In this document: in pieces, positions 34,565 to 61,063 of the stretch
How positions within the stretch are numbered: position 1 is the stretch's first letter
Layout of the letters: each line of letters begins with the position of its first letter
Assembly: GCF_006345805.1 (NCBI RefSeq)
Contig: NW_021832430.1
Coordinates: forward strand, 248,001 to 312,000
From: Octopus sinensis
Taxonomy: Eukaryota
DNA length: 64,000 nt
Reading direction: 5' to 3'
Notes under the pieces: model-generated
What the model was told of the DNA's origin: nothing
Seen by the model: only the letters and a program-made list of their open reading frames with translations
Databases searched by the model: none
Made by a program: the position numbers and the translations under genes

Positions 34565-36160
34565 CAGTAAAACCTCTGGTGCTCGCCACCTCTGTTACTC
34601 GCCACCTCTATTGCTCGCCACATATTTTTCAAAAAATTAAAAATTTCTAGTAAATTTTGATAAATATTCTATTGCTCGCCATTTTCTAAATCTCGCCATT
34701 AATTTTTAAAAATATTTTTTTTGGTTAAACTATTTTTTATATAAAATATTTCAACCAGGCTGAATTTAACATGCGTAAGTGCTAAAGATTGTCTTTTAAT
34801 GGAAAACGTCGCATTCTTGCGTATATGGAGGAGAACAAAAGTCTCACGATGGACCGTATAGCAGTTGAGCAGTTGATCAGAAACAAGAAATTGATGCATT
34901 TACTTTTTTGATCTCTGCAAAGATTCAACAATATAATGCTGAAAACATTTATAACGCTGATGAAACTGGGATTTTTTACAAATCTATCCCTTCAAAAAGT
35001 GTTTGTCAGAAGGTTCGACATGGACATAAAATCCTTAAAGAACGGTTTAATTTTTATTTATTTTTTAGATTTTCTTTGTTGCTATGCTCAAATATGACTG
35101 GGACAGACAAAAAAATTCCACTTATGATTGGAAAGTTCCAGAAACCTCGCTGCTTTAAAAATTTTAAAGTCGAAAATTTTGTCGATTACTGTCATTCACC
35201 AAAAGCATGGATGACAAGTAAAATTTTTAACGAATGGCTTCTAACATAAGATAGGCATCTAAAAAAACGAAAAATTCTTTTAGTTGTGGATCGATGCCCA
35301 TCCCATAAACTTTACGCTGATTTACAGTCAATTGAAGTTCTTTACCTACCTTCGAAGACTACAACAATTCTACAACCAATGAATCAAGGAATCATTAGAT
35401 CCTTCAAAGGACATTTTAATAACTTAAATTTGAGTTTATGTTAGAAAAAATTGAAAATGGAGAAAATCCACTGGAAGCTCATAAAAAAATAACTTTAAAA
35501 GACGGTCTTCTTTTTACATATTTTGCCTGGAAAAAAGTAACGACCAAAAACAATTACAAATTGTTTCGGACATTCAAAATGGATCGAATGTGAAAATCAA
35601 TTCGAAAGACCAACTGTTGAAATTGATAATTATGATCAAATGGTAAATATCTTGAAAATATTGGACCCGGTGAATAAAGATGATTTTATTAATCATGAAT
35701 TTACCGAAATAGATGAAATTGAAGATTACCTTAATATTGCTGGAGATTCTTTTCCACACAAATATGACGATGAAGATACTCATAATGACGAATCTCATGT
35801 GACTTCAGAAGAGGCTTTGAAAATGTTGAAAAGAATAAAGTCATTCTTTTATCAAAATGAAAATTTTGATATAAATTCGTTGGAACTAATCGAAACCGTT
35901 ATTAAAAATATGGCTGAATTAAAAAAATTATTAAAGATTTTTTTAGTTAATTTTTTCCTTTTAATTCTTTCGATTCTCTTTGTTTCTTTGCTCAAATATG
36001 ACTTGGAAGGCTCACTTATGATCGGAAAGTATCGAAAACGGAGATGTTTTCAAAATTTCAATGTCAACAAATTTATTGATTATTTCTATTGCTCGCCAAA
36101 TTCTATTGCTCGCCATTTTTTCTTCGGTCCCGAAAATGGCGAGCACCAGAGGTTTTACTG
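34565..36160 (+). mobile_element. Tigger/pogo element 2, decayed (only in copy A), probable 24-nt intron 35045-35068
   Basis: TIR CAGTAAAACCTCTGGTGCTCGCCA, TA TSD, empty site at ~55995; IYNADETG, KAWMT, QPMNQG motifs. Confidence 0.93.
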
Positions 36161-38184: not shown

Positions 38185-39068
38185 TTTTTGTTCTTTTCTA
38201 ATAAATTTTGTGTTTTAGGGTAAATATTTGTTGCTTTTTGAACTATAATTATTTATTCAAGATTAGAATAACAAAGGTGTATAAAAGGGACTTTTTAGAT
38301 AAGATATCCTTACAAAATGGCTAGCAAATTGATGTGAGATTATACAGTGATTTTAAATTGGTTTTAACAATTATTTCTTTGAAATAATTAACACAAAATA
38401 ATATTAGGGAGTTTGGAACAAATTTTTTTATCCATAGTTTTTTGAACACTCTAAAATTTTAGCACACAAAGCTAGGGTCGAGCTATACTATTATTTCTTG
38501 TACTAAAATTCACTAAGGAGATCCACTTGTTTTTTTTCTATTTGCTCTCTGGGCCAACCAAATAGCCAGAAATCTCATTTCGATGGAATCATATTGGATG
38601 GTTGAACTTCTTTGATTTAATAATTTAATAATCTTTGACACTCGGATATTTGCTGAAGGTCGAAGATAGGAAAGTCCGATTATTAGCTTATACCAAATGA
38701 AAGGATTTGAATCTTTTCTCATACTGCTGGAATGTTTTCCCCTCATGTATTGCTTGACGACATCGTTAAGGGAGCACTTGATGTGGATGGATTTACTTTA
38801 ATGTTTGAACCTGCTGGGCTTGATTGCGGGAACAAGAAACTTGGAACCTTCATTAAAAAAAAACTAATTAATTTTCGAACCTTCGAAGTGAGCAGAGAAT
38901 AACACTCCACGCACCTCCTTCCCTTCTTCTTCCTTTTCTCTGGCACTATAGACTTCCGAGAAAGTGCAGTCCAGCGCCTCACGCTGACTAAATGTCAGGA
39001 AAGAACTGGATCGGCGAGCATCAAACGAGACACTCTCCAGAGTCCTCTTAAGAACAGTTGACTGCATA

Positions 39069-40999
39069 CAGTATAACCTCCATTTGGGGCAGACCTCTGG
39101 CTTGGGGAACCTCTATTTTTGGGGAAACCTCTATTTTTGGGGAAACCTCTATTTTTGGGGTAGTTTGAAAAGGATATAATTTTTATGCGGTAATTTCCAA
39201 ATTTAGAAATTACCGGAACCTCTAAGTGGGGCACAGGATTTTTAATTTATATACATATTTGCTATTAAAATTAAAATTAATTATATAAAATTTCATTTGG
39301 AAGCCTCGTGTAATTTTTGTATTCTTGTTGTTATGGCTCGTAAGCTTAGTCTTGAGTTAAAGATCAAAATTGCCAAGGAATTAAGTGAAAATAAACATCT
39401 TACTGAACGAGATATTGTAGATAAGTACAAAATTAGTAAAGGTTTTTTATTAATGTAAGTTTTTAGGCGCTGTGTCACGTATTAAAAAATTATCTCAATT
39501 TTTTTATACTGGGGCTGTTCAAACAGATTTTCCCAGAAATATTCAACGCTCTCCTCATACTTTATCCCAAAAATTGGATAAAATTGTTTTTGAGGCTTTC
39601 ACCAAGACAAGGGAAGAATTTATTCCTGTGTCCGGTCCTCTTTTAAAAAATATTGCTTCCAAAGTAGCAAGGATGTTGAATTATTCGGCGTTCAAAGGGT
39701 CCAATGGCTGGTTGGAAAAATTAAGAAAAGACATATGTTGTCATTTAAGACAATTAGTGGAGAGAAAAACTCTTCCGATGTTTCTTCGCTTGATATGTTT
39801 TTTTTCCAAGTATGATGAATACGTAAAAGAATATGGTCTTCAAAATATTTTTAATTGCGACGAAACTGGGTTATATATTAAAAGGATACCTTCAAAATCA
39901 TTTGTAAGTTCGGATGAAGATTGTTTCGGAATTAAAAGAGTAAAGAAAAATTCACTATTCTTTTGTCGGTCAGTGCTTGTGGCGAAAAATTGAAGCCATT
40001 GTTAGTAGGAAAATATAAATCCCCACGTTGTATGAAAAACTTTAACCCTGAAGAACATGGAGTTTCATATTCATCATCTAAAAACAGTTGGATGACATCA
40101 GAAATATTTATTACATGGCTCACCATTACAAATGAACAAATGATTACGCAAAAGAGAAAAATGTTTTTGTTACTTGATAACGCAAGCTGTCACAAATATA
40201 TCCATCTTTCCAACATTGAATTGTTTTTTCTCCCAAAAAATACAACCTCATTAATTCAACCGTTAGACATGGGTATTATTAAATCTTTCAAGTCCAATTA
40301 TCTTAACGCTTTATTGGATTTTACTCTTTATTTTGAGGACGTTGAGTTACAAATTGTTAATTTAAAAAAAATAAATCTTCGTCATGTCATAATAATTGTT
40401 GGAAAAACATGGCAAAATTTAAATCCTGAAACAATAACGAATTGTTGGGAAACAATTAATAACTGTCGGCAACAGATTCCTAGTTCAAATTTTTTAGTTA
40501 ACAGTGAGAAAGAAAATTTGGACACGATAATTGCAGACGTAATTGCTGAAAATGAAGAAGAAAATAATGATGAGTCAATATATGACCAAACTGAATGCAA
40601 CTGTTCACACTTGGACACGATAACAGCAATGAATAACCTTGAAGAGAATATTCACCGTTTGTTTCCCGATGCGTTAAAAGACTATTACAATTTCAGAAAA
40701 ATATTGGGCATACATATGAAGAAATCTGCAACAGGAAACAAAATAACAGATTATTTTCGTGTATAATAGAATAAAAATTTTTTTCTACTTGAAAAATACT
40801 CTAATTATCAATAAAATTAGTGGAAAACATGTTTAAATGTTCTTAAAAATACTTTATTTATTTATAAATTAATGAAAAATATGCTAAAACTATTAAAATT
40901 TTTATAAAAATAAAGAAAATTTCAGACCTCCATTTTTGGGGAAACCTCTATTTTTGGGGCAATTTTTCAAAATTGATGCCCCAAATGGAGGTTATACTG
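39069..40999 (+). mobile_element. Tigger/pogo element 3, possibly autonomous (only in copy A)
   Basis: TIR CAGTATAACCTCCATTTGGGGCA, TA TSD, empty site GCATATAAGC at ~58924-58933; 18-bp subterminal repeats GGGGAAACCTCTATTTTT. Confidence 0.95.
39333..40766 (+). CDS. Tigger transposase (CENP-B HTH + DDD) with 25-nt intron 39442-39466
   Basis: MARKLSLELKIKI..YKISK|GAVSRIKK; GSNGWL; FNCDETG, LLDNASCH, QPLDMG. The three remaining frameshifts are all in homopolymers. Confidence 0.82.
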
Positions 41000-42073
41000 T
41001 ATAAGCATATAGAGACTTATCTACACCCAGCTGTCTTAAGTACCCCTTGTGGTATTTCGTGACTATTCCATCCCATGTCATCACATACGGAATGACATGG
41101 ACTTTGTTCTGTTACATCAGCCCTAGCTCGTTTGCAAGGAGGTAATACTTCCTACTTTTCTTCACTTCCACTATTTGCAAACGGTCTAGGCACGCGATGC
41201 TCACTTTTACGATAACAATCTCCCCAGTAACCTTATCACGGACCAAAATATCGGGTTTGTTGTGCAGAAACGTGGAATAACTATATTTACTTTCAATTGT
41301 GAAAACTTATATAAAATACCATCTACGCAGTTTTCTGTTGTGACTCTGAGATATCTCTCTTTTTAGTGCGCTAGACCAACAGGCTGTTCAAAAGAGTTTC
41401 ACTTAAAATTCCTATTTAAGGATGAGTTACGACTATTCCATTTTTAAAAAATTCTCTAGGCTCGGTCTACGTTTTGTTATTTAAGATAGAACAAACTCCA
41501 TCTTTATAGGATTGAATAAAATAAGTTCCAAATACTCTATCATAGAAGTTCACTGCCCCGAATCGTCCAAAGTGATAAATGGTTGGCTTTATCGACTTAT
41601 CTATTTTACCTTTTTTAACACTTTTAGAAGGTTCTGTTGTTGTTCGTATGTGAGCTTTTATTCGAATGTCAGACTAAATTTACTCAATTCGGAGATTGAA
41701 AATTTCATCGAAAAGATTTCCGGTATTCGTCGAAGTGAAAGAAGACTGCTAAAATCAACATTCGACAAGTGGACAAAGGAAAAGTAATTGTAGAATCTGA
41801 CAAGTGACAAATCCATTCCAGACAAAAAAGTAGAGTTTTCGTCAAAATAAATCATAGAAAAAATATATTTAAAACAATTATTATTTCATAGAAACGGGCT
41901 ATTTTTTTAGATTTTCTTAGCATCTTGCAGTCGTAGAAACTAAGTAAACTTGGAAGGTACAAACAATCTTTCATCACCAAAAATCCAAGTTGGCTGTAAT
42001 TATTAAATTGAAATTTAAGTATTAATTATACTCTTTATTTGATTAAAAGAGACAACAATTAATAGATTTTAAT

Positions 42074-44959: not shown

Positions 44960-46018
44960 CAAACTCGACTAGACATGAAAGATAAAATAATTAATTAACT
45001 AATTAACTTTCCTTTTCCATATTAGTTTGCTCCGCCAAGTTTACTCTCGGAATCCTCTTCCCGCTATCTGTTCCCACTTCGGAGTTGTTTCCTTCATCGG
45101 CGGAAACTACAGAATCTCGCCGTCTCTTCACCGATTTCCGTCCTTCGTCAAATGAGTTACCTGAGGTAGACATATTTTCGAAGCCAAATTTGTGTTCTAC
45201 TATCATGCTTTCCATTGTTTTTTTTCAAACCAACAGTCTGGATGTATGCTTGCACACTTTCTTTGATTTTAAGAAGGTCCATATATTTTCTGAAGAATGT
45301 AGAGACTATCCCATCCCACGTGAGGACAATCGGTACAATCTTTACCTTAGCCTTGTGAATTAATTGTAATTCACTGGCTAGAATGTCGTATTTATGCATT
45401 TTTTCCACTTCCACCGATTTCAAATTATCTATCGAGGTAACACCCACTTCAATGATCCATATCAAATTTTCCTTCTTGTCATACAGGAATATATCAGGCT
45501 TGTTATATTGTATTTTTAGTTCAGTTGGAATTGTAGTATCGACCCGAATTTCCGCAGAGCTATTCGACATTATACACTGCACGGAGTGGTTTTTCAGTCT
45601 CTTGGACTTCTTCATTCCAATCTCCGACACAAGTGCATGTGAACACACCTCACAATCTCGTTATGCCTTCTGGTATAATCTGAATTTAGCATTCTACTGC
45701 ATCGCGTCGCAAGATGGTCCACGGTTTTAGGCGAGGATTTACAATGTGGGCATTTTTCATCAGAGTTTCTGAAAAAGACGTTTCTGTCTTGAAGAAAAGA
45801 GAACATTGCCTCAGATTTAGGAGATATATTCCCTTTCTTTAGCCATGTTGAAGATGTTGGGATATCAAAAATATTATTCTCAAGCGACTCAATAGCTTCG
45901 AATGCAACCTTTTCTTTTTAATACTAAGCAACAGTGACTCTATCTGCAAGTCACGTAGTGATTTAGCAATCTCATCGAGTGTGGTTGTTCCATATTTACA
46001 ATGCAGGAATTCTGTGAT
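44960..46018 (-). mobile_element. 5'-truncated REL-type retrotransposon at the junction between duplication copies
   Basis: CPHC..TVDHLATRC..DYTRRHNE, EIRVDT..YNKPDIF..IEVG..EK.HKYD, IVLTWDG; absent after the end of copy B. Confidence 0.88.
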
Positions 46019-46457
46019 TGAGGTGGTAATTTTGGACAACAAAATTTTTTTGGCAAAAAACTTAATAAATATGTAGGGGGTCCGCGAAATTTTTCATTTA
46101 CTCACAAGGGGTCCGCGGACAAAAAAGGTTGAGAACCACTGATCTAGTGGAAGCATCCAACTTCAGTCTTTCCATATAAGACTTACTGACTTTAGAAAAG
46201 ACCTCCTAATGCCGCAAGACCTGTCCGCGAGATTCAAGGAACCCCGACAACCAGCGCCTTAGACACGGAGAAACCTCACACGTGGCGAGGGAGGTCCGGA
46301 AGCCGTCGTGCCACCACACAAAGGCCGCTGTGGTGCATCGATTGATCAATTTGGACTTCACCTTTTTTCTTGCCGAAAAAGCGCTGGTAGATTCCCGAGG
46401 CATTCAGCTCTCAACGACGTTTGAAATTGAGTTGTACCTAATTTCATATTATTTTAT

Positions 46458-47196
46458 GTGCTCTCGGCAAACCTTGACCAACACCGCCTGGCATGCCTTC
46501 GTGCGGCATCCGCCCCTCACTCTGGCAGCTGGATGAATGCTCTTCCTCTTTCCAGCATCGGGACGTGGCTAGACGATGCTGCCATACGCATCGGAGTGGC
46601 TCACCGACTCGGCCTGGATGTTTGTGCAAAACACCGCTGCAGATGCGGTGAGGACGTTGACGAAAAGGGAATGCACCCACTTTCCTGCAAGAGGAGCGCA
46701 GGCAGGGAACACAGACACAAGGCCCTCATTCGTGCCTCCTCGAACCGGTCGGACTCGATCGGGGAATGGCAAAAGGCCTGACGGGATGACAATATTCCCG
46801 TACTCGTCGGGGAAGGCCCTCGTATGGGATGTTACCGTTGTGGATACCTTTTCAAATCGAGGATCCATTCTTCCGCCGCAAACCCTTGTTCGGCTGCAAA
46901 CCACGCCGAAAAGATCAAAATACAAAAATATTCTTCGCTCGCGAACCGCTACCGCGTTACGCCAATCGCCCTGGAGACCGCTGGAACCGCGGGAAAGGAG
47001 ACTGACTCGTTCCTCAACGAGGTCGGGCGTCCATTGGGAGGAGGCTCAAGAACACGAGAGAGGGTCTCTGGTTCTGCCAGCGCATCGGCCTGGCCATTGT
47101 TTGGGGCAACGCACACTGCGTCTTCGCCGCTGGGACTTACGATTTTCGTTTTTTTTGACTTTCGTTTATTACAAAAAAAAATTAAAAAAAAAAAAA
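46458..47196 (+). mobile_element. CRE-clade retrotransposon 3' region, copy B
   Basis: Duplicate of 24066-24805. Confidence 0.85.
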
Positions 47197-47489
47197 TTTG
47201 TGTAAAAATTCCAAAATCCACTTTTTAAGATTAATAAGAAAAAAAGCAAAACTGCTCAGAAACTCTACATGCCCTCCAACCAACAGGAACGATCGTCCAA
47301 ACGTTCAAAAAAGAACGTCAAGTCACGCTCAAGCAATGCAGAGTATAGAACATCATCACAGCTTTGTGTAAGAACAATTTCGATGAACGTTCTTTCAAGG
47401 CAAACTTTAGAAATGATCCCTAGAAGTATAGCCTTAATTTTCACAAAAATGCAAAATTTTAAATCACATAGTTCTTTTAGTTAAAATAT

Positions 47490-49429
47490 ATAAATTATTT
47501 TGCCGAGTTAATAATTGATAATTAATTTTTCAGCTTAATAATAAACATTTTAAATATAAATATAGATATTAAGAAATATTTTAAATAAATCTTTTTCTCA
47601 CAGATTATTCAAATAATATCTAAAAAATTCTGAATTATTCATTTTAAAAACACAGAAAGCTAAATGATAAGATATATACATAAGATTAAAATCTCTGAAA
47701 ATCAATTAGATGTTGCAGATCACCACCTAGTCTAATAAATTAATGTACTGGAAGACATAATGGTGGATTATAAACAATTAGGCGTCATTTATTTTCATCA
47801 TAAAAGTGATATTAAAGGTGTCTAAAATACAGAAGTTATAGCCATAACAAATTATCTAAATAAAATTAACGAAAATTCCTTTTTATGACGTTTGGTTGAA
47901 CTCATAGCCAGACACTTTAGCAATTTGAGGATACTTCATTACTCTCACAATTCGATGGACAGCCTCGTTCACTGAAAAATATGTGTAAAAAGTCCGAAAT
48001 TCTCTCAGCATTGCATCGACTTAATAACAACAGGGCAGCGGGTTATGATGATATTTGCGGAGAGTTGTTGAAATACGCACGGACCAAGCTTCCAGAAATG
48101 ATAACTCTTATATTCAATGTATTCAGGAATCATTGTCCAATTGAACTTGCGATGGGAGTTATACTTTCTCTGCAAAAACCTGGCGATTGAAAATCTCAGG
48201 CAACTGACCACGTTGCGAAAAACCCTGTCGATTATAACATTGAATCGTATATTAAAATCAGTTGATAAATACCTGTCGCCAAGTCAAAGCGAATTCAGAC
48301 TGGGAAGATCAACCGCTGATATAGTATGGAGTCATCGGTGGCTTACTGCCATATGTCAGAAGTACAGGAAAACGATGCACATTTTGGGAGTTGAGCTATC
48401 AAAAGCGTTCGACAGTATCTGTCTAGATAAACTACTGCGAGTTCTCGAGGATATTGTTGATGAAGACTCCTTGAGGATTGTGCGTTTTCTGCTGGCTGAT
48501 ACGAGCCTCGTAGTGAAAATGGAGAGAAACTATTCGGATAAATGGACCTCCGGGATTGGTACTCCGCAAAGGGACTCTCTTTCCCCAGTCCTCTTTGTAA
48601 TCTATTTGGAAGCCGCGTTATGAGATGTCAGAAAGGAATTGTATCACGTAAAATTTAAGTCTTGAATAATCATTTTGTGGAACTAATATAGGCCAACGCC
48701 ATTGATTTTATATCTGAGGATGGGGAAATTCCAAGAGCTGTAATAGACAAGGCTACAACAGTTTTGAAGAGGTGGTCCTGAAGATCAATTTGAAAAAGAC
48801 AGGCATAACTTCGATTTCTGCGTCCGTCGACTCGGATTGACGAGAAGTGGAGGTTTAGTAAAATGCTTGGGTCGCTTTTGAGCGATGCTGAGGACATTGC
48901 CCGTAGAAAAATGTTGGCGTCGTGTGCACTAAATAAGATGTGGAGTATCTGGACACGCCAAAGACTTATCTCTCTAAATCTTCGGACACACTTGTATAAT
49001 GTGTTCGTACTACCAATCCTATTATGCAACTCGGGAACATGGGGAACATCGAAAACGGACCTTTACGCTTTTCATAGAAAGCAAATGAGAAAAAAAACGG
49101 GTATCAAATGGCCACAGACCATCAAAAACGACACTTTCTACAAATTATGTGAATGCAAGCCGATTAGCAAGGAAGTTACTACCTCATGCTGTCATGAGAA
49201 TGGAAAAATGATTTCTTGCAATCAAATCATGGAAGAATACTTTTCTAATCAAGGAATTGGATTTCGGAGTCGGCCAAGACGCACGTTTCTCCTCTGCCTG
49301 AGGGATGATTACGCGAGAATTGGCAACCAACTTGAAAATGGTGACAATCTTGAGGACATTCACAAACGCACGAGAAACAAGGCTGAATGGAAAAGACTGA
49401 CTGGGAGGATATTTGAGACTACGACATGA
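47490..49429 (+). mobile_element. Decayed RTE-like LINE, copy B
   Basis: Duplicate of 25100-27044. Confidence 0.85.
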
Positions 49430-50442
49430 GCAAAACCTTAGGCACATAGGTGCTTATGTTAGCTTGATTTGTCCAGTCTTGAAGCGCTTGGTTTGCTGAA
49501 AAAAGTAATTTAGAATGGCTCGCCAATAGATAAGAATTGGTCTATCGAGTATCTTGTTGTGCGATCAACAAGTTTGTCATGCTCATGTCCCCAATTGAGT
49601 TCTGGATTTTTGAGAGCAATTTTTAGAGCTTTTTTTCGTCCAAAAGGACCAAACTCTTCTCCCCGTTTATCATTTGCCCAACGGAAGAAAGACTAAGGTG
49701 AATGAATTGCGAGGCTGTCTAGTTGGCAGAGATACGTCAAATTACTATTGGCAACGTTCTCGAAAAACGGGCTGCTAAAGTCGCATCACGGAGGCCATCA
49801 CAGAGACTCAGCTGCGAAGTCTCGCCACTTCAGATTGATGTAAGAATTCCAAATGAATGTGAAGCTGCAGTGCATGCAACCAGAGAATTCTTTTCGCAAA
49901 AAAAGAAACTCAAATGTTTTAGATATAAAACTGGATATTAAGAATGCATTCAACAGCCTGAGAAGAGACGTGATTCTCGAAGCCTGCTTTTCTGATCATT
50001 TCAAGCAAATCTTTCTCTTTGGATGCGAGTTTTATACCAATTACCAGATTATACTTTAAAATGATTTTGCACATTCCACCTAATCCAGCAAATCTCAAAC
50101 ACTTGTGAGACTTTTCACTAAACAGAGGAAATACTAAGAGTATTTCGATTCCTTCATGGAAAAAAGATACGTCGCTATTATAAAGGCCTTTGAATCTATA
50201 AATAATGAAATAACAGTTGTATTGGCCAAAAAAATAAAAGAATATTTGAGCTCAAAAGTCGGATAGCTATTAAGAATAATATCACGGTGTAAAAAGTAAA
50301 TCTATCAGTGGAAAATCAGTCCAATTTCAAAAAATAAACTTTCATAGACACGAGAAAACACAAAAATATACTAATTAACTAAATATATAAAATAAGGAAA
50401 AAGTATTGAAATTAGTCAAAGAACAAGTAAAGACAGAAAGGT

Positions 50443-50830
50443 CTAATTTTGCTCGACTTGTTTGGCCAACAAATCACTTTCCCTGTAAAAATAGTATTCC
50501 TAGACATATAAAAGACACACTACGTTGTCCCCAAGCATTATTTTGCTACCACCGTACTCTGGGATGATGACAGAATCCCCCACCTTGACCGACATTGCCT
50601 GTCTGACACCATTCTAATATATTTAAGTCGACTTATGTTGTACCACGATACTGCCGGGTCCAGCAGCCACAATTGTCCCTTCTATGACCTTTTCTTGAGC
50701 TTTGGCTGGAATGAGAATCCCAGTCTTTGAAACTGTTTCCTTAGCTGCTCTCTGAACAAGAATTCTATCAAATAGCGGAACGATTTTTTGAGCAATGGAC
50801 TGGAATATTAATACAAAGTGGAGAAACCAT
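50443..50830 (-). CDS. HSPE1: HSP10, copy B (intact)
   Basis: Same exon structure and length as copy A. Confidence 0.95.
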
Positions 50831-51095
50831 CAGAGAAAACGTGACAGTACTTTTATTACTTTTTTAAATGTAATAACTAATTAAAATATATTAATAACAA
50901 AAATTTTCAATTTATTTTAACATAATTATCTAAAACATTTATACAAAAATAATAGAATTTTATAATATATTTCGTCGAAAATTAAAAAATCTAACCATTA
51001 ATTTTTTTAAAAACTAAGATTTTAATAATTAAATTTAAATAAGTTATATAAAAAACTATTAATATATGAATAAATTCAAACCCACAAGTGTTCTG

Positions 51096-51773
51096 ATGTG
51101 TGCTGATATTCTACCTGGGAACACAATATACATAAGCAACCTAAACGACAAGATAAAGAAGCTGGGTTAAGTTTAAATTAATATTTCCAGAACTTAAAGA
51201 CCAGCTATACCACGCCTTTGCCCATTTGGCCACATTGTCGAAATAGTGGCCCTAAAGACTAATCAAATGCGGGGACAAGCATTTGTCATATTTAAGGAAG
51301 TGAACAACGCCTCACTTGCCCTCCGGTCTATGATGGATAATTCTACATTCTACGGCAAGCCATGGTAAAGGATTGTCCTCATCTTCCAGCGCATAGAGTA
51401 CGCCAAGACTGAATCCCAGATCATAACTAGAATGAAGACATTATATGCCGAAAGATGTGAAAGACAGAAGGAGGAATTGCAGTCAAAGTCGAAAAGAGTT
51501 CGAATGGATGTCTTTGAGAACGTGGAATGTCCTCCTGATGCCTCTTCTGTGCTTTTTGTGGAGAATATTCCAAGTGACGCCACTGAACATGATCTCAACA
51601 TTCTTTTTAAAAAGTTTTCTGGGTTTAAGGAACTTCGGTACACAAGTGCTCGGCCGGAAGTGTCTTTTGTGGAGTACGAGAATGAAACATGTGCTACTGC
51701 TGCTCTTCAGTCTCTTCAAAACTTTAAACTTTCCCCAACTCATTTTCTGGCAATTTCATACGCCAAAGTTTAA
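51096..51773 (+). CDS. SNRPB2: SNF/U2B'', copy B, with apparent lesions in exon 2
   Basis: Duplicate of A, with one C missing near 51221 and a garbled segment at 51331-51362. Confidence 0.8.
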
Positions 51774-51867
51774 TTTTTCTTGTTTTTTTGATTATGATTT
51801 TTTATTAAAGAAAATTTAAATAAATTGAATTTTGATAAATTAATATTTTATTGGATGATGTGAGACG

Positions 51868-52835
51868 ATGAAACCACTAAAGCTTTAAATGATTTTATTT
51901 CACAGTTAAAGTGTTCCTCGTGGTGATTTTCTTTTCTTATTACTACCAGCTCGTCCTCTACTTGTGAATTATTTAGCCATTCGAATCGTCCAACTCTTTT
52001 CTGCCAGTTAGCAGTTTTAAATAATATTAAAGAAAGTGCTTGGAAGAGTGTGGCGATCCCCTTCTGTCTTCTTCTATTATAAATCGGAAAAACCTTACTT
52101 CACTCGCAAACTTAGCCAATCAACTTGTGGACAAGCTCAAATCCCTTAAAGACAGTCCCTCCAAAGTCGTGGTGGCCCAGTGGCTACTCCATGCGACAAC
52201 TACGGGACCTGAGGGGGATGACCTTTTCCTACGATGTGTGACGGCATCCACCATGTCCTCACAAGTCTCCCACTTGGTTGTCCAGACAGACGAGAATGGG
52301 CGATGTTTGAGGACATTTAAGTACATGACCGCTCTTCTCAGAGGTCTGTGGATTGTGTCTCATCAATGTACGAACATGAATGTATTTCAGGGCTATCCGA
52401 CTCGTTTGACTGTCAATCCTTACTGGACTGTGCCCCTTATGAAGTGGTGGGACACTCCAATAGCGAAGTGTCGTATATTCCTACCAAGGCGAGGACCAGT
52501 CAAGTCTGTAGCTGTTTGATAATGAGTAGTCTCCTCCTCTTTTTGATGGGATTTCTGTCTTTTTTGCATCAAAGACACGCATGCCCCGGCGGAAAATTAT
52601 TTCATTGGTGGAGTTGGGTGGAGGAAAAGTCCTAAGAAGTCTTCTTTCTGAATATGAGAAGAGCAGACCCTTCCATGCTGCTGCTTCTGGACTGATAGCA
52701 AATTGTCCGGTTGTAGCCGTGTCAGATGAGTGGGCTGGAGCCGTCCTCATTGGAATGAATTTAGAGAAAAATTGTTTGGTTGCTTCTGAGAATTGGATAT
52801 TTGATTGTATTTCATCGTATTGCCTTGTTGAATGA
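51868..52835 (+). CDS. BARD1/BRCA1-like, copy B, with apparent frameshifts
   Basis: Duplicate of A, with -1 after the ATG, -2 near 52179 and -1 near 52229. Confidence 0.72.
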
Positions 52836-52895
52836 ATGGCTTATTCTGTCTTCTTGTTTTTTGGTATTACTTAAATAATGTAGTTTCGTTATTAT

Positions 52896-53782
52896 TAGGG
52901 CAACATATCAATAAAGTCAATTTCAATTCAGAGTTAAACTTTAGTCTAAAATAATGATTAATTTAAAAAATATCCAAAAAAGATTTTTATAAAAAGTTTG
53001 TTACGTCAATTTGGTCAATTTTTGGATTTTTTAGGTCAATTTTTTAATTAAGTCAATTTTAAAATACGAATTTAATTATAAAAATCGTATTGTAACAAAT
53101 CTTTAACTAAATTATAGACTACGTATGCCTAAAAATAAGCCTTCAGATTGTAAAAAAGCGAAAAATATTTGTGAAAAATATCCCAAAGAATTTTCAATTA
53201 CTCCGAATGGAATGCTTTTTTGTAAATTGTGTGAGTTACCCGTAACTTGCAAAAAACATTTTTTTGTGAACAAACACAGGGAAACACAGAAGCACTCTTC
53301 ACCAACAATTACATCCACAAATACAAGATAATTGAATTTTTTTCAAATTATTGTTTCAAAAATTTTGAATCATTTGTATTCTCAAACATTTCACTCTATA
53401 AATTGAGGAATGAAGCAATTATCAACTTATTCGAAAATATTGGGCATCCACTTCCTTCAGAGTTTACTTAAGATAGTAGAAATTTTAGCCCAATAAAAGA
53501 TATCAAAAATAATTAATTTAATTTAAAATGAGCGAGACTGCACCTTCTCGGAGGTCTACATTGCCAGAGAAGAGGAGGAAGAAGGGAAGGAGGAGCATGG
53601 AGTGCCATCGTCTGCTCACTTCGAAGGCTCTGGACTTGGAAAATTACTTAGTTAATTAGTTTCTTTTTTTACAAAATATTTGAAAATAAAGTTTTAAATA
53701 ATATTCCGTAGGTCAATTTTTCAGTCAATTTTTAAAATTTTACGGTCAGTTAATTTTTTAGGTCAATAAAATGTTTGCCCTA
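52896..53782 (+). mobile_element. Non-autonomous hAT element, copy B (no Tigger)
   Basis: Same TIR and GTTATTAT TSD as copy A. Confidence 0.88.
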
Positions 53783-54561
53783 GTTATTATTCTTGATGAG
53801 ATACGTCAAGGAATTGATTTCGTTCAGTTTTCAAGAAATAAAGCAATAGACCTCGAAGTAGAAGCAGTTTAGCGTTTCTTACTGACTAAATGTTAAAAAG
53901 GACTGGGAGAGCATTAAACGAGATACTCTCTAGAGTCCTTTTAAAAACAGTTGACTGCATATAAGCCTGTAGAGGTTTATCTACATCTAAATATCTTAAG
54001 TAACGCTTGTGGTATTCCGAGACCACTCCATCCCATATCATTTTACACGGAATGAACCCACGTCATAACTGCTCACTGAACAAGTACAATTTCTTCTTAT
54101 TACTTGAAAACACGTGAACGCAATTCTCTTTAAGTACTCTTCGGACAATAAGTTCAATTTCATCATAGTCACTCGGGTTGAATTCGATTAGTCCGACGTA
54201 GTAGTTGAGCGTACTTGTTAAAGACGTGGAACAAGTTCTATACATTGAGGCGAGATGCCTATATTATTGCTGCATTGCTACGCACATCTTCCACTAGGCA
54301 CTTTCTAGTTTCGAGCGTGATTAATAAAGCTGGTTTTTCAACCACATCAAGATACTTATATCTTTAGTGTTTCTCCGGGACTTTGACTAAATGACCACAT
54401 ACGTGATCCAGTCGAACGGTCTTGAAACCTTTCAGATTTTCCCAATAAAATAATAATTGATTACATAACCACAAAATTTAATGGGACAGACACACCCTGC
54501 TTAATTGTAAGTAGAAAATTAGAAAGATTTATTAAATTTGATTAGTTGAACAATAAGCAAA

Positions 54562-55780
54562 TTAGTAGACGTGTTTAGCCACAAAGAGGCTTTCATTGGC
54601 AGATGCATCGTCTGTGCCAGAATAAACACCCTGGGAAGCATCACTACAGGCCTAGGCGTAGTGACCATTAAACTATACATTGGCTCTTTTGATCAATTGA
54701 GCGACAGCTAGATCATTATTTGCACAATCTCCATTCCACTTTCTAATAACGGAATGTTGCAGAGCTCGTCCATAAGAAAAGGACAAGGACCAGGGATACA
54801 TTCTCCGATCTGTATTGGCCTGCTTATTGATCTCGTTAAGAATGTTTGTAGAATCCGACTCGGAAAATCCACCCGAAAGGAAAACAATTCCTTTGAGTCA
54901 TTAAAAGCTCAGAACCAGGGACTGCAGATGGAACAGTTCTTCGCAATGTGCGAAGAGTTGCGGTGGCATTATCAGAAAACGAACTTTGAGGATTGGCCTG
55001 CATTCCTGAAGTGACCATGTTTGGTTTTAGTAAAGTTCCTTCCAAAAACACGTCCTGGTCATTCAGAGCTTTATAAACTCCCGCCAAAACCTAAAATAAT
55101 AAAAACGAATGACCACCTTTGTAGTAACATATTCACATCTTTCTAAACTGTGAGTACCGTCACAGAGAACTTCAGGCTCTACGATGGGGACGATGGCATT
55201 CTATGGATTCAGGAAAAATGAGACCAACTCGTTGACATATTTTGGCATACGAGGCAAGTACATTGCTGTTTGTGACAATCGCTAGTTCCGACGGTGTTTG
55301 GTCAGTAATTGTGAGGACACACCGCCATTTAGCAAAGTCCGCTCCAGCCTTTTTGTACTTGGCACATCTTTGGTCCAAATTGTCGAGCCCTGACAAATTC
55401 TAAATGCCATGTTGACCTTGAGTCGTTGTCTCCACTCCATTGATCGAAACTACTCCCAAATCAACTTTAATTCCAGTAAGTATCCCGTTTTTACGTAAGA
55501 CCTCCGGAAATGAGACTCCTTCGTCAGATGTTTGCCAGAAAGTTTCGTCGTACATGATCACTCCGGAGATGTAATTACTGAGAACTTCTCCAGACGAGAA
55601 GAGCATTTGACGATAAAGACGACGATTTTGTTCATTATTTGTGCAATTTATTGCTGAAAACCGTTTTCCGATCGTCCCTGTGCTTTCATCAGCAGCCAAA
55701 ATTCCTCGGCCGACTCTTGTGAGTTTGTTAGCGATTTCTGAAAGTTGTTTTTGTTGGATTTCGGTTAAAAATGAATTCAT
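54562..55780 (-). CDS. ALDO: Fructose-bisphosphate aldolase, copy B (intact)
   Basis: Open frame after removing five introns (27, 28, 26, 25, 27 nt). Confidence 0.95.
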
Positions 55781-57522
55781 ATAGTTTCTTAAAAGGTGAT
55801 TATAAATGTTAAATTGATAATAGTTAGATAATCAGTTACCTATGATATGCTGACGCAGTAGAATAAAATTTATTAATTTTTTAAGGTTAGGCTTAAAAAT
55901 TATATCACATTATAATAACATATTTATTACCTATTATAAATAGCTGAAGATTTTATTTATTTTTTTAGAAAAAATGGGTATTCATAACACACGATATATT
56001 TTTTTTAACTAGATGAAACAAGGCTGAAAAAAAATGTTTTTTTACAAGACCAAAGTTTGTGTTAAGGGGCTTAATAAGTCAATTTTAATTAATTAACCTA
56101 TTAATTAGTATTTCCTATTTGATTTGGTTATGAATTCTGACTATCATTATTACGTCATTAATCATAAAAGAGTTTGTAATCAGAAGAGTCATGTTTACAA
56201 AGCGAAGCTCCGAACTCTGAGTGCCACGTTACCAGAGTGGGATTGAGAAGAGTAATGTTTATGAGAAGTGCAGAGAACCCCGAGTTTAAATGCGTAAGAA
56301 ATAATTTTATGCTACAAATACCGTATTCCGACAAGCTTTCCATTTTTTGCATTGACGACATTATAATCTTTGTGATTCATTTAGGATCTCTAGAGTTGCT
56401 CAAAACAAATTGTCAACAGTTTTCCTCCTCGAGTTGCAGTGAATATACTTTGTCTCGGGAATTATTTCAATCTTAAATGAAAATAAATTTCAATCTTGAA
56501 TAAAGCATAACATTTCTTCATTTCGATAAGAAGTATTTCCATTGAATGCAACCAATTATTTTAATAATTTCAATAAGGTGTTCTTCCTGAAATTGTGTTA
56601 AACGATCCATGATCTTTAATTTAATGTCATCATCCATTCGATGGACAAGGACGTTGAATGAACCTACTACTTATTATTATTTAAATCGAGAAGACCGTCA
56701 AAGCCAGAACAAAATCAGTTAGGTGATGCAGACATTCCCAATCATAACACGCATATTCTCGTGCCAGCATGCTTTGACGTGGAACACAGAACCCGTCGTC
56801 TTTAAAAGCGTTTCGAAAACAGTTGACTTTATACGGAGTTCAGTGAAACTGAACTTTGCAGTTGTATTAATAAAATACTGATAATTGTTAAAAACTATAT
56901 ATGGGTTCCGTGAGGCAAATAAAATGTCTTTAGGCGGCCGCGATCTCTAAAAGGTTCGGAACTACCGATGTACAGAATTGATAAAAATGGCATTTTGAGA
57001 ATAGTCAATTCAATGGCGTTGTCTGTTCAGCGACCTGTGGCATTTAATATTTACAGTTTTCAATTTTTTGTTCAATAAAAGAATTTTGATCAATTATTTT
57101 TGGTGTCGACCCAACGCGAATTATTTCCTTTGCTAATTTTTCCCAAAAAAGTTGTTCTACAAGCTAAAGGTTTGCAATAAATCTTTTAACCAGTCAGACT
57201 CCACTTCGGTGATGGCAAAAACATGTGACTGGTGAAGTAAATCTTTATCCTAGGAGCACTAGAGACCTCAGAAATCGCAAAAAGCTTGATCTTGCCTTTA
57301 TAAATGATATCAGGAATTAGGATACGATTTTTCACCGTAGTATACCACCTATTATTTCAGGAAATTTCTATTTCAAAATAATAAGTTATAAAAAATATTT
57401 ATTATTTTGTAGTTTAGTAATAATTTATAATAAAACAATAAAAAAATCAACGCGTGGATTATTCATTAGTTGGTGTTTGATTTCTTAGTTTGTTGCAATA
57501 TTTAAAAATCACTATAAATAGA

Positions 57523-58027
57523 ATGGAAGAGAATCCAGTTAACGTTATTACTCCAGGAAGGGTGGTTATAATGCTTGCTGGGCGATATGCTGGCAAAAAA
57601 GGCATCGTAATGCAGGTACCTATTATATATTATTAGGCCTAGAATATAAACGAGACTAAAAATAGAAAATATCCTCAATGTCTTGTTGTTGGACTGGCAA
57701 AAAATCCCCGTAGAATACTATCTGGAATGTCCTCAAATAAAATACTTAAAAGGACCAGACTATCCACATTCGTTAAGCTGACAAATATCAACCACGTCCT
57801 CACAACAAGGTTTATATACATTTATTTTATATATTTAGATATTGTGTCACTCCTTCCATTACAACTGATGATGTTAATGTAGATAAGTATAAAGATCTTG
57901 CAGGAAGAAAGCAGATGAGGCAATTGGCACGAACTGCATTGGAGTCACAGTTATGCGTATTTGTATATTACTCTGTAGTTATCGAAAAGGCGAACATAAG
58001 TGGTTCTTTAAGCGCATCGATATGTGA
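57523..58027 (+). CDS. RPL27: RPL27, copy B (intact)
   Basis: Canonical GT at the first donor; frame open after three introns. Confidence 0.93.
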
Positions 58028-60001
58028 TTTTTGTTCTTTTCTAATAAATTTTGTGTTTTTGGGTAAATATTTGTTGCTTTTTGAACTATAATTATTTATT
58101 CAAGATTAGAATAACAAAGGTGTATAAAAGGGACTTTTTAGATAAGATATCCTTACAAAATGGCTAGCAAATTGATGTGAGATTATACAGTGATTTTAAA
58201 TTGGTTTTAACAATTATTTCTTTGAAATAATTAACACAAAATAATATTAGGGAGTTTGGAACAAATTTTTTTATCCATAGTTTTTTGAACACTCTAAAAT
58301 TTTAGCACACAAAGCTAGGGTCGAGCTATACTATTATTTCTTGTACTAAAATTCACTAAGGAGATCCACTTGTTTTTTTCTATTTGCTCTCTGGGCCAAC
58401 CAAATAGCCAGAAATCTCATTTCGATGGAATCATATTGGATGGTTGAACTTCTTTGATTTAATAATTTAATAATCTTTGACACTCGGATATTTGCTGAAG
58501 GTCGAAGATAGGAAAGTCCGATTATTAGCTTTTACCAAATGAAAGGATTTGAATCTTTTCAGGTGTTTGAATCTTTTCTCATACTGCTGGAATGTTTTCC
58601 CCTCATGTATTGCTTGACGACATCGTTAAGGGAGCACTTGATGTGGATGGATTTACTTTAATGTTTGAACCTGCTGGGCTTGATTGCGGGAACAAGAAAC
58701 TTGGAACCTTCATTAAAAAAAAACTAATTAATTTTCGAACCTTCGAAGTGAGCAGAGAATAACACTCCACGCACCTCCTTCCCTTCTTCTTCCTCTTCTC
58801 TGGCACTATAGACTTCCGAGAAAGTGCAGTCCAGCGCCTCACGCTGACTAAATGTCAGGAAAGAACTGGATCGGCGAGCATCAAACGAGACACTCTCCAG
58901 AGTCCTCTTAAGAACAGTTGACTGCATATAAGCATATAGAGACTTATCTACACCCAGCTGTCTTAAGTACCCCTTGTGGTATTTCGTGACTATTCCATCC
59001 CATGTCATCACATACGGAATGACATGGACTTTGCTCTGTTACATCAGCCCTAGCTTGTTTGCAAGGAGGTAATACTTCCTACTTTTCTTCACTTCCACTA
59101 TTTGCAAACGGTCTAGGCACGCGATGCTAACTTCCACGATAACAATCTCCCCAGTAACCTTATCACGGACCAAAATATCGGGTTTGTTGTGCAGAAACGT
59201 GGAATAACTATATTTACTTTCAATTGTGAAAACTTATATAAAATACCATCTACGCAGTTTTCTGTTGTGACTCTGAGATATGTCTCTTTTTAGTGCGCTA
59301 GACCAACAGGCTGTTCAAAAGAGTTTCACTTAAAATTCCTATTTAAGGATGAGTTACGACTATTCCATTTTTAAAAAATTCTCTAGGCTCGGTCTACGTT
59401 TTGTTATTTAAGATAGAACAAACTCCATCTTTATAGGATTGAATAAAATAAGTTCCAAATACTCTATCATAGGAGTTCACTGCCCCGAATCGTCCAAAGT
59501 GATAAATGGTTGGCTTTATCGACTTATCTATTTTACCTTTTTTAACACTTTTAGAAGGTTCTGTTTTTGTTCGTATGTGAGCTTTTATTCGAATGTCAGA
59601 CTAAATTTACTCAATTTATAGATTGAAAATTTCAACGAAAAGATTTCCGGTATTCGTCGAAGTGAAAGAAGACTGCTAAAATCATCATTCGACAAGTGGA
59701 CAAAGGAAAAGTAATTGTAGAATCTGACGAGTGACAAATCCATTCCAGACAAAAAAGTAGAGTTTTCGTCAAAATAAATCATAGAAAAAATATATTTAAA
59801 ACAATTATTATTTCATAGAAACGGGCTATTTTTTTAGATTTTCTTAGCATCTTGCAGTCGTAGAAACTAAGTAAACTTGGAAGGTACAAACAATCTTTCA
59901 TCACCAAAAATCCAAGTTGGCTGTAATTATTAAATTGAAATTTAAGTATTAATTATACTCTTTATTTGATTAAAAGAGACAACAATTAATAGATTTTAAA
60001 T

Positions 60002-61063
60002 TTATTCCATCTGAAAGTTGCTGTACATCAAATTGGATGAAGGTTTACTAAATTGCATATTCCCATTATAAACGCATGTTCCTTCAGAATTTGGACCAAA
60101 TTGAGAATAATTCGAAGGCCCGTTTGGTTCAGAAGCGTACATCGAATAACCAGGATTTTGATAGTCTAAAAATATTATGTTTAATTTTACCCATTGAATA
60201 CAAATTTTTCGAATTTTTGTCTTTTGGCACATATTTTATGTTATAGTTCACATTGTTGTTATTAAAATTATTCTTTTTCTCTTTTGATCTTTTGTTTTGG
60301 TACCAAATCTTGATTAGAATCAAATAAATTTTACTTGAATTACTCTAATATCCAAGTTCGTGTCCTTGGATAGTTGTTCTCTTACATGCCGTGACGGCTT
60401 TGACGTTTCAGAAAACGCTTTCAAAAGAATTCTGAGCTGTTCAGGACGAATGGATGTTCTGGGGCCCCGTTTTTTACAAATTCCAGTTCCCCTATTTTTG
60501 ACTTTGTCTTCGTTATCATTTGTTTCAGATTCATTGTCAGAATTAACAGACTTGTAATCAAAAACAGGCGAGGACTCCGCAGAACTATTCGGGATCGCAT
60601 CGTAGTCATCATTTTTCTTATTTTCACCTAAATCTATCAATCACAATTTAATAAAACATGAATATTTTTTATAATCTTCAACGCAAAACAGAGTGCTGCG
60701 ATTAATGTAGTAGAAACAATCTCCGACCTGTAGTTGCTGTCTGCAGCCGTGACATTTAAAGCATTCAATGTGATACATGAAGGAATTCACCATTAGAACG
60801 TATGTATTTTCTTCAATCATACAACAACATATTGGACAATTTCCATAAATTCTTGATAAATGAACTTAAAATGATTTTTACCTTGAATAGTCGTTGAAAC
60901 AGTAGATAAATCCATTCTTCCAATAACAAATATCACGAAGAATTGAACTACATTCTGAACACTGTATACAGTTCTCATGCCAAAAGGATTGCATCAGAAT
61001 ACAATGAGATTCGCCTTTATTTATCACATTGCAACATTTTTTGCATATTTTTTCGCCTTCCAT
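60002..61063 (-). CDS. LHX1: Lhx1/5 LIM-homeobox, copy B (intact)
   Basis: Frame is open through IWYQNKRSKE after splicing. Confidence 0.9.

What the first reader, a model, noticed from the sequence alone, without database searches (positions are those of the whole stretch)
39333..39500. Tigger transposase carries a host-sized 25-nt spliceosomal intron
Seen: ATG at 39333 opens a CENP-B-type HTH that breaks at AAAG|GTTTTTTATTAATGTAAGTTTTTAG|GC. Removing this 25-nt GT-AG restores YKISKGAVSRIKK in frame with the rest of the transposase. Tigger 1 (31894, minus strand) has no intron at the equivalent SKGTI position. Known: some DNA transposases have introns. Inference: this element has gained or shrunk an intron to fit the host's tiny-intron spliceosome. 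That could restrict its host range or let splicing control transposase output.
Basis: partly seen in the sequence, partly recalled or inferred. Interest (0 to 1): 0.72.

Follow-up and report, generated by a model that had tools for sequence, protein, structure and literature searches.

The report
Tiny intron in young dicyemid transposon
A recently mobile jumping gene, in DNA that likely comes from a tiny kidney parasite of octopuses (a dicyemid), has a 25-base insert in its transposase gene that is very likely a spliced intron of the size normal for that parasite and was likely gained once, long ago, in one branch of the transposon's family.

Summary
Observation confirmed. 39442-39466 is a 25-nt GT-AG segment in a full-length pogo transposon (39069-40999, 23-bp TIRs, TA duplication; empty site at 58927). 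All 47 family copies that span the site keep it (23-25 nt). Removing it gives 470-472 aa in two other copies; keeping it usually stops at codon 42. The window's own copy is frameshifted downstream. One contig of one public run lacks exactly these 25 nt (short 3' anchor; run type not on record). The host is a dicyemid: aldolase 93% identical to Dicyema acuticephalum, with its own 25-28-nt introns. Sister subfamilies have 25- and 30-nt GT-AG inserts at the same site, while five related families in the same genome have none. One old gain in this branch is therefore the simplest history; gain versus shrinkage of a longer intron is not settled. Regulation by splicing and host-range restriction are untested, and young intronless relatives argue that the intron is not needed. 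Introns in pogo (Drosophila, 55 nt) and sub-30-nt dicyemid introns are both known. This scan already noted tiny introns in other transposon superfamilies of this genome at least eight times. A real but modest new variant.

The parts
39067..39068 (.). left TA target-site duplication
   Evidence: a single TA at the empty site 58927-58928 in the duplicated block
39069..39091 (+). left 23-bp terminal inverted repeat
   Evidence: identical to the reverse complement of 40977-40999
39100..39160 (+). subterminal direct repeats (three units here, two in the other 14 full-length copies; related unit near the right end); likely transposase-binding sites (inferred)
39333..39441 (+). coding exon 1: Met1-Lys36 plus the first base of the Gly codon; first HTH up to the turn before the recognition helix
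   Evidence: homologue P0006 aligns to the CENP-B DNA-binding domain 1hlv at E 3.3e-09; helix assignment recalled
39442..39466 (+). 25-nt GT-AG intron, phase 1; retention gives a stop at codon 42
   Evidence: removed in contig 13 of run X4
39467..40766 (+). coding exon 2: HTH_Tnp_Tc5 and DDE_1 (DD29D); frameshifted in this copy, open for 433 aa in L003
39866..39889 (-). 24-nt segment reading GT-AG on the antisense strand, missing from one contig of run X4 (and a 24-nt gap in the same bin in X7); likely cryptic splicing of antisense RNA
   Evidence: present in 20 of 20 DNA copies matched by the flank pattern
40977..40999 (-). right 23-bp terminal inverted repeat
41000..41001 (.). right TA target-site duplication

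Best explanation
The window holds a damaged copy of a young pogo-superfamily DNA transposon whose transposase frame is interrupted at 39442-39466 by a 25-nt GT-AG segment that is very likely a true intron, likely removed by the ordinary spliceosome of a dicyemid host whose own introns are predicted to be the same size. Shown: ends, target-site duplication, empty site, the insert in every spanning copy, the open frame once it is removed, one contig lacking it exactly. Inferred mechanism: the element is transcribed, the host's short-intron U2 spliceosome removes the 25 nt, and the two exons give a ~470-aa DD29D transposase; unspliced RNA stops at codon 42, before the recognition helix, and makes nothing useful. 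Inferred history: one gain at an AAG|G site in the ancestor of families A, A2 and B, after the lineage was in a short-intron host. Since then the interior has drifted while GT, AG and a length of 25-30 nt were kept, because only copies that splice can make transposase. The intron is most likely tolerated baggage, not a regulatory device.
For: (1) 47 of 47 family-A loci that span the site carry it: 39 at 25 nt, 6 at 24, 2 at 23, none at 0 (58 loci examined, 10 do not span, L094 dropped as subfamily A2). (2) Removal opens 470 aa (L003), 472 aa (L022) and 472 aa (majority of 15 full-length copies); without removal 11 of 15 stop at 41 aa. (3) Continuous homologues align without a gap across the site. 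(4) Run X4, record 13: 152 nt of L003 against 127 nt of contig, 25 gaps, 1 other letter, depth 28.2. The bin depths fit only a deletion at L003 1691-1715, the left-shifted equivalent of the intron. (5) The same run lacks a second segment, 24 nt, that reads GT-AG on the other strand (chance 9 of 1336), which suggests X4 is RNA. (6) Host: aldolase exon 1 is 93% identical to Dicyema acuticephalum; the next full-length alignments reach 64% at most. Its five predicted introns are 27, 28, 26, 25 and 27 nt; Dicyema sp. median 27 bp (PMC6543705, passages). (7) Same site and phase: a 30-nt GT-AG insert with a stop in family B (5 of 6 loci) and a 25-nt GT-AG insert in subfamily A2 (L101, 16 of 25 letters shared). 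In organism B's variant four interior letters differ, and no change at GT or AG is among the differences listed (table cut). (8) Families C, D, E, F and G are continuous in DNA at the site; A+B form one branch, SH-aLRT 99, nested among them.
Against: The spliced junction rests on one contig of 1 of 7 runs laid (X2, X4, X7, X8, X10, X11, X14). It has only 18-20 letters on the 3' side, under the tool's 31-letter bar for bridging. It is not in the printed joint or gap tables; it was read from the piece table and depth arithmetic. The run's kind is not on record, and the contig's 5' part is the end of another repeat, so it is not a normal transposase mRNA. X2, X8, X10 and one X7 contig keep the segment. 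The database model P0001 uses another acceptor (an 88-nt intron). In three of four A2 loci the acceptor is not intact. The tree is the quick one; the careful search did not finish, and A2 was not in it. The exon structure of the outgroup proteins from other organisms was not checked in DNA. Only 40 of 72 DNA candidates and 150 of 181 protein candidates in G000 were scored.
Confidence: 0.88

Rival explanations
1. The intron is old and was longer: an intron at this site came in with the ancestral element and shrank to host size, and families C, D, E, F and G lost it.
For: Dicyemid introns are described as shortened within a conservative exon/intron structure (title of Ogino 2010 as cited in PMC6543705; paper not read). 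Intron loss prevails in CACTA transposases (PMC4158355, abstract). Lengths at the site differ, 25 versus 30 nt.
Against: It needs at least two losses (the C/D/E/G branch and F) plus absence in the outgroup proteins, against one gain. No longer intron at this site was seen in any locus fetched.
Confidence: 0.15
2. The intron is a regulatory switch: inefficient or tissue-limited splicing holds transposase down, as with the third intron of the P element, and this helps the family persist.
For: Retention gives an early stop in both A and B. Very short microsporidian introns splice poorly (about 25%, as cited in PMC13644364). P-element precedent (PMC5443660, passages).
Against: There are no splicing-level data here. 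The retained product is 41 aa and cut before the recognition helix, unlike the 66-kDa P repressor. Intronless family C is as young and intact (ORF 465 aa). An early stop on retention follows from any AT-rich 25-nt insert.
Confidence: 0.12
3. The segment is not spliced. It is an insertion or local duplication that killed the founder, and the family was spread in trans by another pogo transposase; the X4 contig is a chance DNA deletion.
For: The start of the insert resembles its own 3' half; many internally deleted copies exist; the only spliced contig is chimeric and short-anchored.
Against: Exon 2 stays open for 433-435 aa. GT, AG and length are kept across A, A2 and B while the interior diverges. 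An exact GT-AG deletion by chance is 4 in 1348. The internal repeat is changed in organism B's variant. Each family has its own TIR sequence.
Confidence: 0.05

Closest known systems
Drosophila melanogaster pogo (pogoR11), whose two ORFs are joined by splicing a 55-nt intron (10.1101/2023.05.27.542554, passages, citing Tudor et al. 1992)
   Same: pogo-superfamily element whose transposase needs one short, host-sized intron removed
   Different: Here 25 nt and inside the first HTH; whether the position matches Drosophila pogo's was not tested
pogo superfamily, families Tigger (DD29-36D) and pogoR (DD29-59D/E) (Gao et al. 2020, PMC7386202, passages; the word 'intron' does not occur in its main text)
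   Same: TIR of 40 bp or less, TA duplication, HTH_Tnp_Tc5 plus DDE_1, DD29D
   Different: Family not resolved here; nearest named relatives are TIGD6-like proteins of the microsporidian Dictyocoela muelleri (44-47%), and Gao places TIGD6 with pogoR
Ultra-short spliceosomal introns of Dicyemida and Myxobolidae (PMC13644364, parts 1-2 of 3 read; PMC6543705 and PMC6736024, passages)
   Same: Length 25 nt against a median of 27 bp; minimal GT and AG signals; a few A residues upstream of the AG
   Different: Those papers describe host genes; here the intron sits in a mobile element, at a site where its relatives have none
TLEWI, Tc1-like elements with introns in bivalves (10.1101/656579, part 1 of 4 read)
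   Same: An ITm transposase split by spliceosomal introns, which the authors call rare in class II elements
   Different: TLEWI are low-copy, lack TIRs and look domesticated; this family has intact TIRs, dozens of near-identical copies and an empty site
P element third intron (PMC5443660, passages)
   Same: Retention gives an early stop
   Different: P retention yields a 66-kDa repressor under tissue control; here 41 aa, and no evidence of control

Membership tests
pogo superfamily DNA transposon | Short TIRs and TA target-site duplication | tested here: met
   23-bp TIRs, TA on both sides in the 15 full-length copies aligned; single TA at the empty site
pogo superfamily DNA transposon | CENP-B-type HTH domains plus DDE_1 catalytic domain with DDxD | tested here: met
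   PF03221 E 2.8e-11 and PF03184 E 4.7e-39; DD29D. Exon 1 alone hit no Pfam family; homologue P0006 matches CENP-B 1hlv
Tigger family in the strict sense (versus pogoR) | Placement in the Tigger clade on a tree with reference elements | tested here: inconclusive
   No Tigger1 or pogoR11 reference in the tree; the element's clade lies apart from the TIGD5-like and jerky-like rows; DD29D fits both families
U2-type spliceosomal intron | GT...AG ends whose removal restores the protein | tested here: met
U2-type spliceosomal intron | Present in DNA, precisely absent from RNA | tested here: inconclusive
   Present in 47 of 47 DNA copies; precisely absent from one contig of run X4, kind not on record, 18-20-nt 3' anchor
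U2-type spliceosomal intron | Branch point and lariat | not testable with these tools
   A TAAT at positions 10-13 is shared by A, A2 and organism B's variant: a candidate only
Dicyemid ultra-short introns | Lies in dicyemid DNA and falls in the host size range | tested here: met
   Aldolase 5 kb away is 93% identical to Dicyema acuticephalum, with predicted 25-28-nt introns; species not determined
Splicing-regulated transposase (P-element type) | Regulated retention that yields a repressor or differs between cell types | not testable with these tools
   Retained product 41 aa; contigs give no splicing levels

The most novel reading that the evidence does not exclude
The intron was born at about its present size at an AAG|G site after this pogo lineage, kin to microsporidian pogos, entered dicyemids. 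The dicyemid spliceosome needs so little signal that it even cuts a chance 24-nt GT-AG stretch out of antisense transposon RNA. Once gained, a 25-nt intron in the first DNA-binding helix would lock the family into hosts with short-intron spliceosomes and bar horizontal escape, while intronless sisters stay free. Paired intron-bearing and intronless families in one genome would then be a direct test of how ultra-short introns arise and of whether introns confine transposons to a host.
Probability: 0.3. Interest if true: 0.68.

Novelty: new variant of a known kind. Interest (0 to 1): 0.42.

Why it matters
It is a datable, probably single intron gain with intronless sister families in the same genome, in one of only two animal groups reported to splice introns under 30 nt. 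It gives a compact natural substrate for asking how little sequence a spliceosome needs, and whether an intron can tie a mobile element to its host. It also shows that proteins filed under an octopus name come from parasite DNA, and that one such gene model (P0001) skips this intron's acceptor. Both ingredients are known separately, and the same pattern has been noted for other transposon superfamilies in this genome, so this case adds a well-supported pogo example rather than a new principle.

Tried and rejected
No RNA holder was listed by the look-up of sequencing runs; that blank is no evidence on expression. X11 and X14 do not cover the junction. In one search (likeness 85, window copy) X4 showed no cover of exon 1; contig 13 appears at likeness 80, as expected if 25 gaps in 152 letters count against it (my arithmetic). 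The 43-nt and 31-nt frame-restoring alternatives and the 88-nt intron of model P0001 were rejected because they delete residues that homologues keep. A search for an intronless copy by open-frame length gave one 291-aa frame; it is an internal deletion joining codon 30 to the DDE region, not an intron loss (L081). An origin by tandem duplication of the flanking sequence was considered; the internal repeat is changed in organism B's variant and in A2, so it is unsupported. The foreign 5' part of the spliced contig was considered as a trans-spliced leader; it is the TAA-tailed end of a dispersed repeat (11 matches; none of the 6 loci read continues into this transposase). The careful tree timed out and the quick tree was used. 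The script stopped with an error before pairwise identities. A by-sequence look-up of earlier findings found nothing. Literature: 'dicyem' + 'transposase' gave 1 paper (PMC10658181, listing only); 'intron gain' + 'transposase gene' + 'DNA transposon' gave 5 (4 listed); searches listed no paper on dicyemid transposon introns. The library lacks most subscription journals, and supplements of PMC6736024, PMC7386202 and PMC13644364 were not opened; they may list such elements.

Full report
The sequence is as described. ATG at 39333 opens 36 codons plus one base; 39442-39466 is a 25-nt GT-AG segment. Left in, the frame stops after 41 aa. Taken out, it continues into an HTH_Tnp_Tc5 domain. The gene lies in a 1931-bp element, 39069-40999, with identical 23-bp TIRs and TA on both sides. 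The window is largely a tandem pair of ~22-kb blocks, and the second block holds the empty site with a single TA at 58927-58928. Contigs of runs X2, X7 and X11 also join across the element. So the insertion is a true transposition, later than the duplication or limited to one haplotype.

The family is young. A DNA search of G000 gave 41 matches from 40 of 72 candidates scored. Fifteen full-length copies differ from their majority by 1-19 substitutions in 1.9 kb and sit in 14 different flanks (L006 and L007 share one). I examined 58 loci: 10 do not span the site, one (L094) belongs to a diverged subfamily and was dropped, and the other 47 all carry the insert, 39 at 25 nt, 6 at 24 and 2 at 23. 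Removing it opens 470 aa in L003, 472 aa in L022 and 472 aa in the majority of the 15; the other 13 copies break earlier. The window's copy is one of these: indels at 39483, 39505, 39720, 39798 and 39937 end the joined frame at 211 aa. Whether these are decay or assembly errors is not known. Exon 2 of L003 carries PF03221 and PF03184 and a DD29D triad.

The host is not the animal the assembly is filed under. The closest protein (95%) is labelled Octopus sinensis by its source. But the aldolase 5 kb away is 93% identical to Dicyema acuticephalum, while the next full-length alignments reach 64% at most. Spliced alignment to that protein predicts five introns of 27, 28, 26, 25 and 27 nt in both window copies of aldolase (15-120 nt allowed). 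Published values: median 27 bp in Dicyema sp. (PMC6543705, passages), mean 38 bp in D. japonicum (PMC6736024, passages), and splice signals reduced to GT(a) and AG (PMC13644364, parts 1-2 of 3). A 25-nt intron is ordinary for this host.

Evidence of splicing is one contig. No RNA holder was listed. Seven runs were laid, all as contigs. In X4, record 13 covers L003 1584-1735 (152 nt) with 127 letters, 25 gaps and 1 other letter, at depth 28.2. The printed bin depths, 26.1 and 15.1, are met by only one placement, 1691-1715, which is the intron shifted left over the shared AG. The limits are real. The 3' anchor is 18-20 letters, below the tool's 31-letter bar. The joint is not in the printed joint table. 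The run's kind is not on record. The contig's first 179 letters are the TAA-tailed end of a dispersed repeat, likely a retroelement, so it is best read as read-through into a truncated copy, or as a retro-processed chimera; either would need splicing. A second X4 contig lacks 24 nt at L003 2120-2143 (window 39866-39889), which reads GT-AG on the antisense strand. X7 shows a 24-nt gap in the same bin, and 20 of 20 DNA copies matched there keep it. Random deletions of 25 and 24 nt read GT-AG on either strand in 4 of 1348 and 9 of 1336 cases. Two such in one run suggest RNA (inference). Runs X2, X8 and X10 (one sample of organism B) keep the segment, with three to four interior substitutions and none listed at GT or AG (tables cut).

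History. A protein search of G000 (150 of 1637 candidates scored) showed several related families; 20 loci were fetched. Family B (55% identical over 160 aa) has a 30-nt GT-AG insert with an in-frame stop at the same codon and phase in 5 of 6 loci (L033 missed the pattern); removal gives 466 aa. An older subfamily A2 has a 25-nt GT-AG insert there in L101, sharing 16 of 25 letters with A; in the three other A2 loci read the acceptor is not intact. In a quick ML tree of 59 proteins, A+B form one branch (SH-aLRT 99), sister to C/D/E/G (92), inside a clade with unnamed proteins and Dictyocoela and Cucumispora microsporidian proteins; F lies outside (P0001, P0003 and P0014 left out as members of A and B; careful search unfinished; A2 not included). 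These relatives align without a gap across the site, though their DNA was not seen. One gain in the A+B stem is the simplest account; an older intron that shrank needs at least two losses. The site lies just before the helix that aligns with the third helix of the CENP-B domain (helix role recalled).

What it does. Most likely the host spliceosome removes it like any host intron, and its ends and length persist because only lineages that make transposase keep spreading. Nothing here shows control by splicing: the retained product is 41 aa, unlike the P-element repressor (PMC5443660, passages), and intronless family C is just as young (98.6-99.9% between copies) with a 465-aa frame. A host lock is plausible, since introns under 30 bp are reported only from myxobolids and dicyemids among 51 animal genomes (PMC13644364), but it is untested.

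Comparison with what is known. Drosophila pogo already needs a 55-nt intron spliced to join its ORFs (10.1101/2023.05.27.542554, passages). Introns in ITm transposases are called rare (10.1101/656579, part 1 of 4). The pogo survey does not use the word intron in its main text (PMC7386202, passages). In CACTA transposases loss prevails over gain (PMC4158355, abstract). My searches listed no paper on introns in dicyemid transposons; supplements were not opened. Earlier notes of this scan report the same pattern for hAT, Merlin, Ginger and other families in this genome. They are unchecked AI notes, not support; I reached the dicyemid and gain readings before or beside them. My own data add a second pogo case: family H in this window has a 24-nt GT-AG insert at a different site.

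Verdict: a real, very likely spliced, host-sized intron in a young pogo family of a dicyemid; likely one old gain; no evidence of regulatory use. New variant of a known kind, interest 0.42.

Noticed in passing
window 34565-36160 (+), insert 35045-35068: A distant pogo family (H; internally deleted here, ~1930 bp in L066-L070) has its own 24-nt GT-AG insert just after the first catalytic Asp region. It is in frame with no stop; no other row of the 59-protein alignment has extra residues there once it is removed. Matched in 12 of 14 loci. Empty site at ~55998. Not checked in RNA.
   Followed up: partly
window 39866-39889 (-); L003 2120-2143: A 24-nt antisense GT-AG segment is missing from a contig of X4 (and probably X7), suggesting antisense transcripts of the transposon are spliced at a cryptic tiny intron; it lies beside the first catalytic Asp codon.
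   Followed up: partly
window 23624-44959 versus 46016-62895: Tandem ~22-kb duplicate (96-99% alike) with U1A-like RRM, aldolase and LIM-homeobox genes. The first block carries the insertions at ~31-32 kb, 34565 and 39069 that the second lacks. It could be a true duplication or two haplotypes assembled in series.
   Followed up: partly
L051-L056; run X4 record 13: A dispersed repeat ending in a TAA tail (likely a non-LTR retroelement 3' end) is joined at the transposase ATG, sharing two letters, in the spliced contig.
   Followed up: partly
P0001 (source label Octopus sinensis): The database gene model uses the right donor but an acceptor 88 nt away (window 39526), dropping 21 residues; parasite transposases are filed as octopus TIGD6-like genes.
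   Followed up: yes
L081, L082 (G000:C10323, C10313): An internally deleted copy joins codon 30 in frame to the DDE region, giving a 291-aa open frame without the intron region or the second HTH.
   Followed up: partly
L084, L086, L087, L088, L091: Five of the ten loci that do not span the site break inside or at the edge of the intron; possibly just AT-rich microhomology.
   Followed up: no
L046, L047/L048 upstream of the start codon: Families E and F have short GT...AG stretches just before their ATG that could be 5' UTR introns (seen output).
   Followed up: no
/ tree: The nearest named non-host relatives of the dicyemid pogo families are from microsporidian parasites (Dictyocoela, Cucumispora) at 43-52% identity; too distant to show recent transfer.
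   Followed up: partly
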